DNA of 64,000 bases from a virus (IMGVR_UViG_3300044695_004869), one strand, 5' to 3'. Positions 61,482 to 63,524 are shown, counted from the stretch's first letter. Program-made: numbers and translations. Notes: generated from the letters alone by a model not told the origin.

Positions 61482-61535
61482 TTGGAATATTGTTTTTTTG
61501 TATTATCTTTGTATTTATAAATTAGTTCTTTAACA
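61482..61535 (+). promoter_or_regulatory. Bacteroidota-type promoter plus boxA leader of tmRNA
   Basis: TTG (61482)-N19-TATCTTTG (61504-61511), then GTTCTTTAACA (61525-61535), 3 nt before the tmRNA 5' end. Confidence 0.72.
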
Positions 61536-61538
61536 TAT

Positions 61539-61936
61539 GGGGGTAACTTGGAATCGACTGACATAGTTGGTTATTCGGGGCACGCAGTGAGAGGGTTCCT
61601 ATCACTTTAATCTATGGAGTCAACAATTAGACGGCAACGTTCTAGACAAAATGGCGGCAATCGGTCTTATCCGTGAAGACGCTGCGGTAGTAGCCTAACA
61701 GTTAGGAAACACCAATCGGGTCGGTGGACATACAACCTAGGAACAGAAGTCCCTACAAAGATGTGGTTTCTATCGTAAAAGGAATAAGTGGAGGATTAGT
61801 TCTCAGTAAAACGAACCACTTTAAAAATAAGGGAATTGTGAGATTTCGGAACATTAGATTAAATGTTGACCTAAGCGTGTAGTCCTTAGTAGTCAAGATG
61901 GACAACACGAGGGTTCGAATCCCTCTACCTCCACCA
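61539..61936 (+). ncRNA. ssrA: tmRNA (one-piece, 398 nt)
   Basis: 5' GGGGGTAACTTGGAATCGAC pairs with 3' TACCTCC-A-CCA including a G3-U wobble; T-arm GGGTTCGAATCCC; tag frame 61633-61698 encodes GNVLDKMAAIGLIREDAAVVA*; next to smpB. Confidence 0.95.
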
Positions 61937-61939
61937 ATT

Positions 61940-61967
61940 AAACCTCATCTAACGATGGGGTTTTTTT
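61940..61967 (+). terminator. tmRNA terminator
   Basis: AAACCTCATC-taac-GATGGGGTTT plus T tract. Confidence 0.8.
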
Positions 61968-62018
61968 ATGCGGTAAAATTATAGATTAGTGTTGTATGAT
62001 TATTATATTTTAGAGCAC

Positions 62019-62044
62019 AAAAAAAGAGGTATTAATTACCTCTT
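62019..62044 (-). terminator. smpB terminator overlapping its stop codon
   Basis: AAAGAGGTA-ttaat-TACCTCTTT with an A7 run on the + strand. Confidence 0.7.
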
Positions 62045-62466
62045 TTAATATCACGATCAATATCTCTTAATTTGATCGATTGTCGTTTATCGTAAAGTTT
62101 CTTACCACGAGCCAGAGCGATCTCAATTTTGATTAGATCCCTATCATTAAGGAATAAACGATAAGGAATTATTGTTAAACCATTTATTAACTGATTTTCC
62201 AAATTACGTAACTCTCTATTCTTAAGTAAGAGTTTACGATCTCTTATTGTTTCATGTGTTGACCCATATCCATAATCAGTTATATTCATACCTTTGATGT
62301 ATAGCTCCCCATTGTTAAAATAACAATACCCTTCAGAGATGGACGCTTTACCCATTCGGATCGCTTTCACTTCTGACCCCAAAAGTTTTATACCGGCAAT
62401 TTCTACCTGAATAAACTCATATTCAAATTTAGCCTTCTTGTTGATTATGTTTACAGATTTTTTCAT
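62032..62466 (-). CDS. smpB: SsrA-binding protein SmpB
   Basis: NKKAKFEY...AGIKLLGSEVKAIR, RDRKLLL, GLTIIP, KIEIALARGKKLYDKRQSIK.RD. Start moved to ATG 62466; TATATTTG at 62471-62478. Confidence 0.95.
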   Translation of the reverse strand: MKKSVNIINKKAKFEYEFIQVEIAGIKLLGSEVKAIRMGKASISEGYCYFNNGELYIKGMNITDYGYGSTHETIRDRKLLLKNRELRNLENQLINGLTIIPYRLFLNDRDLIKIEIALARGKKLYDKRQSIKLRDIDRDIKRGN

Positions 62467-62481
62467 GATACAAATATAAAC

Positions 62482-62510
62482 AAAAAAAGGGATCAATTTA
62501 CATTGTCCCT
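62482..62510 (-). terminator. Terminator downstream of the large ncRNA
   Basis: Minus strand AGGGA-CAAT-GTAA-ATTG-A-TCCCT-TTTTTT. Confidence 0.78.
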
Positions 62511-62553
62511 AATTAATTTTTTTAACTTAATAAGTTTACCTAAAAAATAAAAA

Positions 62554-63450
62554 CCTGAGATTACAGTTTTTTGTGAGAACCTTTAGTAGTATTATTGTTT
62601 CCCTACTTATCCACCATCTTTTGAATGGTATTTCTCAGTGACGATTAGTTAGACCAATCACTCCTTAAGATAACAGTTACTCTCTTATTACTCGACTCTC
62701 TCCGAGAATGCCTTCCCAGTTGGTCCTTGCGGGACTAGAGGTGTTTGGTAAGAATATCGTTAAACTTGCGGTTTAGACGATGCAATGAACGGCTCATTAC
62801 TATGTAGTCACCTTTCACTGTTACCTGACGAACACTTTTGCTTAAGTCATATTTAATTATTGGAATAATCAACATTTCCATAAGTTTGTGTTGTGGATTG
62901 TAGAAGTAGTGGTCCGCCACGGGCTCCGTTATCTTTTGAACAACGGAATACTCAACTACTCCTTGAAATGTCCCCATTTCCATACTTTAAGATTACTTCG
63001 AGATTAACCCCTTGGTAGAAGTTTATCAAGGTTAATAACGGCACCACCCGTACATTAACATACCTTTCGGTTTTAAGTACCCTTTAATATTGGAACACGC
63101 AATAATGAAATTGGATAACTTCATGTTTTGCAATATTCCTACGGGTTATTCCTATTAGTGTCCCCACCTCAATCAGACGACCCACATCGCCCAATCATCT
63201 AACCATTTTCCCTACAGCGTTGCCCTCGGTACTAAAGGTTAAACGGTATCCCGCTTGTGTACTCAAGTTCGGTTACCCAAACCGCAAATCGGTTACACTT
63301 CCGACTCACTTTATCCTACTTTCGTAGTTTATTTTATGGACTATACACGGCCCAATATCTTTATCAGTTACACTCAAGCTGCGGACTTTCTGCCATTTAC
63401 TCGGTGGATAATGTCACCGACACTTTTGTGTTTCCTGAACGGATAATCTA
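62554..63450 (-). ncRNA. Large (~900 nt) highly structured non-coding RNA, GOLLD-like
   Basis: More GC-rich than its flanks, no credible ORF, own promoter, leader and terminator. Many hairpins with purine-rich loops (CTAC-GAAA-GTAG, ACC-GAAA-GGT, GAAATG-GGGA-CATTTC, GTCC-CGCAA-GGAC). 3' end TGTAATCTCAGG can pair with upstream CTGAGA. The GOLLD identity rests on size, context and recollection only (~0.55). Confidence 0.75.
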
Positions 63451-63453
63451 ATT

Positions 63454-63524
63454 TTTTCAAAGAACGTTTCAGGACTTTTCCTGATTTGTTGTACAAAGTT
63501 AAGACATTTATTTTGGTTTGTCAA
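63454..63524 (-). promoter_or_regulatory. Promoter plus boxB-like hairpin plus boxA leader of the large ncRNA
   Basis: Minus strand TTGACA-N17-TAACTTTG (63524-63494), hairpin TCAGGA-AAAG-TCCTGA (63484-63469), GTTCTTTGAAAA (63465-63454). Confidence 0.72.

What the first reader, a model, noticed from the sequence alone, without database searches (positions are those of the whole stretch)
61525..63484. rrn-type antitermination leaders (boxA, with a boxB-like hairpin in one case) ahead of both phage structural RNAs
Seen: GTTCTTTAACA between the promoter and tmRNA, and hairpin TCAGGA-AAAG-TCCTGA followed by GTTCTTTGAAAA between the promoter and the 900-nt RNA. Known: boxA (GYTCTTTAANA) recruits NusB/NusE/NusA/NusG/SuhB for Rho-resistant, folding-assisted rRNA transcription. 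Inference: the phage mimics an rRNA operon leader so that untranslated RNAs are made processively and folded co-transcriptionally. This independently supports the large RNA being functional.
Basis: partly seen in the sequence, partly recalled or inferred. Interest (0 to 1): 0.7.

Follow-up and report, generated by a model that had tools for sequence, protein, structure and literature searches.

The report
rRNA-type boxA leaders on phage RNAs
A lake jumbo phage of Bacteroidota puts the signal its hosts place before ribosomal RNA genes (a short hairpin plus the boxA sequence GTTCTTTGAAA) in front of its giant GOLLD RNA, and a boxA-like host tmRNA-type leader in front of its tmRNA, so it probably uses the host's rRNA transcription machinery to make these untranslated RNAs.

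Summary
GTTCTTTAACA (61525-61535, +) lies 3 nt before a tmRNA gene.

The 11-mer pattern occurs only twice in 64 kb, both times in these leaders. In 119 related viral GOLLD loci, 118 carry the 9-mer 38-150 nt before the GOLLD core. It usually follows a -7 box and a hairpin whose stem changes sequence but keeps pairing.

Bacteroidota rRNA leaders carry the same GTTCTTTGA (21 of 31 exact, most of the rest one-letter variants), often in the same promoter-hairpin-boxA layout.

The tmRNA case is weaker. Only 15 of 34 distinct relatives keep the exact motif, and about a third of host ssrA genes have the same leader, so it looks like a host ssrA-type leader.

No binding, transcription start or antitermination was measured. 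The mechanism, NusB/S10 recruitment giving Rho-resistant and folding-assisted transcription, is inferred.

I found no paper on boxA before GOLLD or ssrA. This scan has already reported the same feature on other phage DNA, so it is a new cargo for a known mechanism.

The parts
61482..61511 (+). Predicted Bacteroidota-type promoter of the tmRNA gene: -33 TTG (61482-61484) and -7 box TATCTTTG (61504-61511)
   Evidence: Read from the sequence. The same TAnnTTTG box sits at the same place in related tmRNA leaders. The transcription start is not mapped.
61525..61535 (+). boxA-like element GTTCTTTAACA in the tmRNA precursor leader, 13 nt after the -7 box and 3 nt before the mature 5' end
   Evidence: It is exact in 15 of 34 distinct related phage leaders. 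The same element sits before host ssrA in 11 of 30 Bacteroidota genomes.
61539..61936 (+). Phage tmRNA gene
   Evidence: Rfam RF00023, 77.4 bits against a gathering score of 47, full model. RNA-library contigs lie on it.
61940..61973 (+). Intrinsic terminator after the tmRNA (10-pair stem plus T run)
62032..62466 (-). smpB gene, with its own -7 box TATATTTG (62478-71) 4 nt before the ATG. It is a separate unit from GOLLD.
   Evidence: Pfam PF01668 SmpB, E 1.9e-44. ORF. The promoter was read.
62481..62570 (-). Two terminator-like hairpins with T runs after GOLLD. The first (62570-62542) has the conserved loop TAATCT and a stem that varies while keeping pairing. The second is at 62510-62482.
   Evidence: Read (CTG/CAG, ACG/CGT and GAG/CTC stems in relatives). 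Not found by the simple scan.
62552..63454 (-). GOLLD RNA: a variable 5' stretch (63454 to about 63353), the conserved 5' core from about 63352, and the Rfam-modelled 3' half at 62963-62552
   Evidence: RNA-library contigs from four studies lie on 62510-63397.
63455..63465 (-). boxA GTTCTTTGAAA in the GOLLD leader
   Evidence: 118 of 119 related loci have G[CT]TCTTT[AG]A 38-150 nt before the core. It is identical to the Bacteroidota rrn leader motif.
63469..63484 (-). boxB-like hairpin TCAGGA-AAAG-TCCTGA, 9 nt after the -7 box and 3 nt before boxA
   Evidence: Relatives keep a 5-7 bp hairpin here with different stems: TCGGA/TCCGA, TTCGG/CCGAA, GGGT/ACCC and GAGTTCTC/GAGAAC.
63494..63524 (-). 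Predicted Bacteroidota-type promoter of GOLLD: TTGACA (63524-63519) and -7 box TAACTTTG (63501-63494)
   Evidence: Read. Conserved in most of the 97 distinct leaders. The transcription start is not mapped.

Best explanation
The GOLLD gene is a self-contained unit built like a Bacteroidota rRNA operon head: a host sigma-A promoter, a short 5' hairpin (boxB-like), then boxA GTTCTTTGAAA, then the untranslated RNA of about 0.9 kb, then a terminator. By analogy with E. coli and B. subtilis rrn leaders, the nascent boxA RNA is bound by host NusB-S10. Together with NusA and NusG this converts RNA polymerase into a Rho-resistant, fast elongation complex. That complex keeps the 5' end tethered and assists co-transcriptional folding. 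The phage thereby obtains rRNA-like output of a long RNA that no ribosome protects. The tmRNA gene carries the same kind of element in a leader of about 20 nt that RNase P removes. This layout also occurs on host ssrA genes, so the phage gene probably uses a host-type ssrA leader. Shown here: sequence identity to the host rrn boxA, the layout, conservation, strand and position. Inferred: Nus factor binding, antitermination and the folding benefit.
For: (1) Placement. The only two matches to GTTCTTTRAMA in 64 kb are on the sense strand between a promoter and an RNA gene.

(2) Conservation. 118 of 119 related viral GOLLD loci (97 distinct leaders) have the 9-mer within 200 nt before the core, and the exception has GTTCTTTGT. 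Outside RNA leaders the motif occurs about 4.7e-5 times per base, which is about 0.01 expected per 200-nt window.

(3) Enrichment. 168 of 301 motif occurrences in 1.47 Mb of viral loci lie within 160 nt upstream, on the same strand, of GOLLD, tmRNA or tRNA genes. Those windows make up 3% of the sequence.

(4) Host match. 21 of 31 Bacteroidota 16S leaders have GTTCTTTGA 73-210 nt before the 16S gene, and most of the rest have one-letter variants. Several show -7 box, hairpin, 3-4 nt, then boxA, exactly as in the phage.

(5) The hairpin before boxA keeps pairing through changed stems. The order hairpin-then-boxA is the rrn order, and B. subtilis rrn operons have the same order (PMC13753749).

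(6) The spacing to the promoter varies from 15 to 76 nt, and the module also occurs after tRNAs without a promoter (L001; L026; L098, L108 and L131). This fits an RNA signal.

(7) NusB and Rho are encoded in 5 of 5 Bacteroidota genomes checked.

(8) GOLLD has a C-rich, G-poor stretch in its variable linker (about 62930-62850, C/G 1.6) where Rho could load (inference).

(9) One RNA-library contig joins the GOLLD core to the boxA-hairpin region (X10, joint 63375 to 63455; weak evidence).
Against: No transcription start, protein binding or termination assay exists for any of these loci; the promoters are consensus predictions. The GU-rich boxC-like element that follows boxA in host rrn leaders (GTGTGC, GAGTGAGTG) is absent from the phage leaders. 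GOLLD is highly structured and G-rich overall, so its need for protection from Rho is not obvious. The tmRNA is only about 400 nt, its motif is degenerate in half of the relatives, and in some relatives it starts only 5-7 nt after the -7 box, that is, at about the transcript's first bases. GOLLD genes of a Caulobacter phage and an Acinetobacter phage show no boxA directly upstream. boxA can also promote Rho termination in some contexts (PMC12360218).
Confidence: 0.65

Rival explanations
1. The motif is an RNA processing or 5'-end maturation signal, or a functional single-stranded tail of the RNAs. For example it could be an endonuclease site or an RNase P leader determinant. It would then resemble boxA only because both are U-rich single-stranded segments.
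For: In tmRNA leaders it sits 3-4 nt from the RNase P cleavage site at a nearly fixed distance. In GOLLD it marks the 5' edge just before the folded RNA.
Against: It is letter-for-letter the rrn leader motif of the host phylum, including the preceding hairpin. Its distance to the GOLLD core varies from 38 to 150 nt. I found no covarying pairing partner at the 3' end. This rival is not exclusive of boxA function.
Confidence: 0.12
2. It is a DNA-level element of stable-RNA promoters, such as a regulator binding site or an initially transcribed region that tunes promoter output (growth-rate or stringent-type control). On this view it does not act as an RNA signal.
For: It always lies close to a strong consensus promoter. 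In some tmRNA leaders it starts only 5-7 nt after the -7 box. Host rrn and ssrA promoters share it.
Against: Spacing from the -7 box ranges from 15 to 76 nt in GOLLD leaders. The hairpin-boxA module also occurs after tRNA genes with no promoter nearby. It is strictly strand-specific. In host rrn leaders it lies up to about 100 nt from the promoter.
Confidence: 0.08
3. It is a decoy. Abundant GOLLD RNA, a 14-mer cage, keeps its boxA tails and soaks up host NusB-S10, which lowers host rRNA synthesis or S10 availability during infection.
For: GOLLD is very abundant in RNA libraries. It forms 14-mers and is reported to pull down ribosomes (PMC12286853). boxA is the NusB-S10 binding site (PMC12360218).
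Against: There is no evidence that boxA stays on mature GOLLD. A phage that needs ribosomes gains little from starving rRNA synthesis. tRNA and tmRNA leaders carry the same motif and are processed away.
Confidence: 0.05

Closest known systems
Bacterial rrn operon leader (boxB-boxA-boxC) and the rrn antitermination complex (NusA, NusB, NusE/S10, NusG, SuhB, S4)
   Same: Strong promoter, a short 5' hairpin, then boxA within about 30 nt of the start, ahead of a long untranslated structured RNA. The boxA sequence is identical to that of Bacteroidota rrn leaders. The hairpin-then-boxA order is the same as in E. coli and B. subtilis rrn operons (PMC13753749).
   Different: The cargo is a phage GOLLD RNA (and a tmRNA), not rRNA. 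There is no GU-rich boxC-like element. I saw no flanking processing helix. There is a single promoter in this window, whereas some relatives have tandem units (L128-L131). Activity is untested in Bacteroidota.
boxA before non-rRNA targets: CRISPR arrays and suhB in Gammaproteobacteria, and the boxA behind the early promoters of phage T7
   Same: A host boxA is reused outside rrn operons to control Rho action on poorly translated or untranslated transcripts. T7 shows that a phage can use the host boxA without a protein like lambda N (PMC3709561 citing Savalia 2010; PMC13753749; PMC12360218).
   Different: Those cases are in Proteobacteria and concern crRNA precursors or mRNAs. Here the host phylum is Bacteroidota and the cargo is a giant cage-forming RNA and a tmRNA.
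Lambda nut sites (boxA-boxB with N protein)
   Same: A phage-borne boxA next to a hairpin in a promoter-proximal RNA.
   Different: The order is reversed (hairpin first, then boxA). The hairpin loop is not conserved as an N-binding GNRA-like boxB. I looked for no N-like gene. The layout copies the host rrn leader, not nut.
GOLLD RNA (Rfam RF02032; cryo-EM 14-mer nanocage, PMC12286853)
   Same: The downstream RNA is a clear member of the family, at 331 bits.
   Different: The published descriptions I could read do not mention a boxA or an antitermination leader. The alignments in that paper use the Rfam model of the 3' half, which excludes the leader.

Membership tests
rrn-type boxA (Nus factor) antitermination leader | boxA sequence matching the boxA of the host's own rrn leaders | tested here: met
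   GTTCTTTGA is present in 21 of 31 Bacteroidota 16S leaders, and most of the rest carry one-letter variants. The phage GOLLD leader has GTTCTTTGAAA. The exact host species is unknown, so the comparison is at phylum level.
rrn-type boxA (Nus factor) antitermination leader | On the sense strand, downstream of the promoter and upstream of the RNA | tested here: met
   Both sites follow a TAnnTTTG -7 box by 13 nt (tmRNA) and 28 nt (GOLLD). In relatives the gap is at least 15 nt for GOLLD. The promoters are predicted by consensus only.
rrn-type boxA (Nus factor) antitermination leader | The motif is present in the transcript (mapped 5' end) | tested here: inconclusive
   Only assembled contigs of RNA libraries were available. 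One contig (X10) links the GOLLD core to the boxA-hairpin region. Contigs cannot show a transcription start.
rrn-type boxA (Nus factor) antitermination leader | boxB-like hairpin 5' of boxA | tested here: met
   There is a 6-bp hairpin at 63484-63469. About 50 distinct relatives keep a 5-7 bp hairpin with differing stems. Other relatives carry a 45-nt element or no hairpin.
rrn-type boxA (Nus factor) antitermination leader | GU-rich boxC after boxA | tested here: not met
   Host rrn leaders have GTGTGC or GAGTGAGTG after boxA. The phage leaders continue with an A/T-rich sequence. In E. coli boxA alone is sufficient (PMC13753749).
rrn-type boxA (Nus factor) antitermination leader | Conserved in relatives | tested here: met
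   GOLLD: 118 of 119 loci. tmRNA: 15 of 34 distinct leaders are exact and the rest are near variants.
rrn-type boxA (Nus factor) antitermination leader | The host encodes NusB and Rho | tested here: met
   PF01029 and PF07497 were found in 5 of 5 Bacteroidota genomes.
rrn-type boxA (Nus factor) antitermination leader | NusB-S10 binds the RNA, and transcription becomes Rho-resistant | not testable with these tools
   This needs a gel-shift or NMR assay and a terminator read-through assay.
Lambda nut site | boxA followed by a boxB that binds an N protein | tested here: not met
   The hairpin precedes boxA.
GOLLD RNA (RF02032) | Score above the Rfam gathering threshold over the full model | tested here: met
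   331.4 bits against 150, model positions 1-416.
tmRNA (RF00023) with SmpB | Score above the Rfam gathering threshold, with the partner protein present | tested here: met
   77.4 bits against 47. SmpB matches Pfam at E 1.9e-44. ARAGORN did not call the tmRNA.

The most novel reading that the evidence does not exclude
boxA may not only drive transcription. It might stay on the mature GOLLD RNA, so that each 14-mer cage displays up to 14 NusB-S10 binding sites. In that case GOLLD would act as a sponge or scaffold for S10, NusB or ribosomal components. This would link its frequent adjacency to tmRNA and SmpB, and its reported ribosome pull-down, to a takeover of host ribosome synthesis or translation quality control.
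Probability: 0.06. Interest if true: 0.85.

Novelty: new member of a known kind. Interest (0 to 1): 0.5.

Why it matters
GOLLD is one of the largest bacterial or phage RNAs of unknown function, and its cage structure was solved only recently. An rRNA-type leader would explain its very high abundance. It would also suggest that the cage is folded co-transcriptionally by the polymerase complex that chaperones rRNA.

The leader defines the true 5' boundary and the promoter for expression studies. It extends Nus and boxA control to Bacteroidota, a phylum where it has hardly been studied, and to their phages. The boxA-like leader on host ssrA genes would widen the known boxA regulon to another stable RNA.

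Tried and rejected
1. I looked for a helix joining the post-boxA leader to the 3' end of GOLLD, like the rrn processing stem. AGATTA could pair with TAATCT in this window. However, relatives change the 5' segment while the 3' TAATCTCAG stays constant, and that segment is the loop of the terminal hairpin. Only 7 loci could be compared. Rejected.

2. Co-transcription of GOLLD and smpB as the reason for antitermination. Two terminator-like hairpins and a separate -7 box 4 nt before the smpB ATG argue against one transcript.

3. An Rfam search of the 45-nt element that replaces the short hairpin in some relatives found no match at E up to 1.

4. Laying RNA-library contigs gave no cover over smpB, over the flanks, or (in 3 of 4 runs) over the leader. 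Contigs cannot show absence or transcript starts, so I draw no conclusion from the gaps.

5. No whole genome is held for the window. The exact host and its own rrn leader could not be compared.

6. The original GOLLD paper (Weinberg 2009) could not be read.

7. GOLLD genes of Caulobacter phage Ccr34 and Acinetobacter phage Ab15 showed no host-type boxA directly upstream. The heads of their tRNA arrays were not examined.

8. The motif count in the window alone is not significant.

Full report
WHAT IS THERE

The last 2.6 kb of the window hold three genes of a stable-RNA and trans-translation cluster.
- A tmRNA gene at 61539-61936 (+), Rfam RF00023, 77.4 bits.
- smpB at 62466-62032 (-), Pfam SmpB, E 1.9e-44.
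- A GOLLD RNA on the minus strand. Its 3' half scores 331.4 bits against RF02032 (62552-62963). Alignment with two 630-640 kb uncultured phages places its conserved 5' core from about 63352.

ARAGORN finds no tRNA or tmRNA in the window. The closest bacterial SmpB proteins are from Bacteroidota. All promoters that can be read here are of the Bacteroidota type (TTG, about 20 nt, then TAnnTTTG), so the host is a member of that phylum. No whole genome is held for the window.

THE OBSERVATION

- On the plus strand: -7 box TATCTTTG (61504-61511), 13 nt, GTTCTTTAACA (61525-61535), TAT, then the tmRNA 5' GGGGG.
- On the minus strand: TTGACA (63524-63519), TAACTTTG (63501-63494), 9 nt, hairpin TCAGGA-AAAG-TCCTGA (63484-63469), AAC, GTTCTTTGAAA (63465-63455), about 100 variable nt, then the GOLLD core.

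The pattern GTTCTTTRAMA matches only these two places in 64 kb. As a count that is unremarkable: 11 of 100 shuffles give two or more, and the 9-mer occurs 3 times against 2.7 expected. The signal is in the placement and in the conservation.

CONSERVATION IN RELATIVES

A scan of viral contigs with a 5'-core GOLLD pattern that does not include the motif returned 120 loci.
- Of the 119 loci with enough upstream sequence, 118 have G[CT]TCTTT[AG]A within 200 nt before the core (found at 38-150 nt), always with T at the second position. The exception has GTTCTTTGT.
- The two A's after the 9-mer, which were not part of the search pattern, are also kept (87 and 77 of 97 distinct leaders).
- About 50 distinct leaders have the exact layout of the window: -7 box, about 9 nt, a 5-7 bp hairpin, 2-4 nt, then boxA. 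The stems differ in sequence but still pair (TCGGA/TCCGA, TCAGGA/TCCTGA, TTCGG/CCGAA, GGGT/ACCC).
- Other leaders replace the hairpin with a conserved 45-nt element that has no Rfam match, or have none.
- The distance from the -7 box to boxA ranges from 15 to 76 nt.
- The hairpin-boxA module also occurs after tRNA genes with no promoter in between (L001; L026; L098, L108, L131). This argues for a signal read in the RNA.
- Across 1.47 Mb of viral loci, 168 of 301 motif occurrences lie within 160 nt upstream, on the same strand, of a GOLLD, tmRNA or tRNA gene. Such windows are 3% of the sequence.

COMPARISON WITH HOST rRNA OPERONS

I fetched 16S genes with their leaders from Bacteroidota genomes.
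- 21 of 31 leaders contain GTTCTTTGA 73-210 nt before the 16S gene.
- Most of the rest carry one-letter variants such as GTTCATTGAAAATATTGAAG or GTTCTTTGGAAATTATTGAAG.
- Several show the phage layout exactly. In L263 the order is TTGAC, TATATTTG, 3 nt, hairpin CCCAC/GTGGG, 4 nt, then GTTCTTTGAAA.
- Host leaders continue with a GU-rich boxC-like segment, which the phage leaders lack.
- NusB and Rho are encoded in all five Bacteroidota genomes checked.

The same order, a small 5' hairpin and then boxA, was recently described for B. subtilis rrn operons, where NusB was shown to bind the boxA-like RNA (PMC13753749).

THE tmRNA LEADER

- Among 34 distinct phage tmRNA leaders, 15 keep GTTCTTT[AG]A, mostly 10-15 nt (two at 30 nt) before the mature 5' end. 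The others have GTTATTTGACA, GTTCATTGAAAA or GTTTTTTGAAA at the same place.
- GTTCATTGAAAATAT is also the rrn boxA variant of one Flavobacteriaceae genome.
- Host ssrA genes have the same leader. 11 of 30 Bacteroidota genomes carry GTTC[TA][TC]T within 20 nt of the tmRNA 5' end, for example GTTCTTTAACGTATT-GGGGG.
- The phage tmRNA leader is therefore best read as a host ssrA-type leader that contains a boxA-like element.
- I found no paper describing a boxA before ssrA.
- In some relatives the motif begins only 5-7 nt after the -7 box, at about the first transcribed bases. This weakens the RNA-signal reading for this gene.

EXPRESSION

Contigs of four metatranscriptome libraries from different studies, laid at 90% likeness, lie on the tmRNA and on GOLLD with high word depth. 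One contig joins the GOLLD core to the boxA-hairpin segment through a shorter variable region. Contigs cannot show transcript ends, and gaps in cover mean nothing, so this only shows that close relatives of both RNAs are present in RNA libraries.

MECHANISM

The best reading is host NusB-S10 recruitment by the nascent boxA, giving an rrn-type elongation complex. Its established properties in E. coli are resistance to Rho, fast elongation and chaperoning of long-range RNA folding (PMC12360218; PMC13753749).
- GOLLD is untranslated and about 0.9 kb long. It has a C-rich, G-poor stretch in its variable linker (about 62930-62850) that could serve Rho.
- It ends in terminator-like hairpins, and smpB has its own promoter. 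GOLLD is therefore its own transcription unit.
- GOLLD genes of a Caulobacter phage and an Acinetobacter phage lack a boxA directly upstream. The element is thus an expression signal of the Bacteroidota-phage lineage and not part of the GOLLD fold.

Binding, transcription start and antitermination are all unmeasured.

NOVELTY

Reuse of boxA outside rrn operons is known for CRISPR arrays, suhB and the T7 early region. Full-text searches found nothing on boxA with GOLLD, and the cryo-EM paper does not mention antitermination.

This scan has already reported the same boxA-GOLLD arrangement several times on other phage DNA (e1-5339394, e1-5380554, e1-5404841, e1-5339403). My results, obtained independently here, agree with those notes. 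New here are the host ssrA comparison and the enrichment figures. It is a new cargo for a known mechanism.

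Noticed in passing
window 63536-63685 (-): A 50-aa ORF (MSETIILDN...) with its own -7 box ends just before the GOLLD promoter. tblastn finds homologues in 63 of the fetched viral loci. In the loci I checked by eye (L030, L004) it lies directly upstream of the GOLLD leader. It has no Pfam or PHROG family. It may be a GOLLD-associated protein.
   Followed up: partly
window 61539-63454; L003-L122; L311 473-1786: GOLLD is often next to a tmRNA gene. 42 of 120 GOLLD loci hold a tmRNA within the fetched stretch, here with smpB between them. 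Caulobacter phage Ccr34 has GOLLD beside a permuted tmRNA. This may hint at a link between GOLLD and ribosome rescue.
   Followed up: partly
L281-L310 (Bacteroidota ssrA loci): About a third of sampled Bacteroidota ssrA genes have a boxA-like GTTCTTT element within 20 nt of the mature tmRNA 5' end. I found no description of this in the literature.
   Followed up: partly
L004 3940-3985 and similar leaders (L012, L044, L047, L104, L109): A conserved element of about 45 nt (stem GATTTGAA/TTCAAATC enclosing ...TAGGTGATGAAAGATACTCGGTA...) replaces the short hairpin before boxA in some GOLLD leaders. Part of it also appears upstream of promoters in other loci. It has no Rfam match.
   Followed up: partly
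Supplement of PMC12286853 (ROOL alignment): Several human-gut ROOL RNA sequences begin with UGUUCUUUGAUA in the published alignment. ROOL may also be preceded by a boxA.
   Followed up: no
L128-L131 about 2290-2560; L089 2898; L117 9553: Some relatives carry tandem units of promoter, hairpin and boxA before GOLLD. Others carry the same unit before an unannotated RNA that begins GGTTATAGAAACAGTCTAGGTCC.
   Followed up: no
G001-G005 NusB loci: The open frames holding the NusB domain in Bacteroidota are 310-406 aa, far longer than a typical NusB of about 140 aa (the typical length is from memory, not checked here). This suggests an added domain.
   Followed up: no
window 60062-61564 (-): The longest ORF call for the upstream 500-aa gene overlaps the tmRNA start and promoter. 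A later ATG at about 61459 (MNYGKY...) fits the intergenic promoter better.
   Followed up: no
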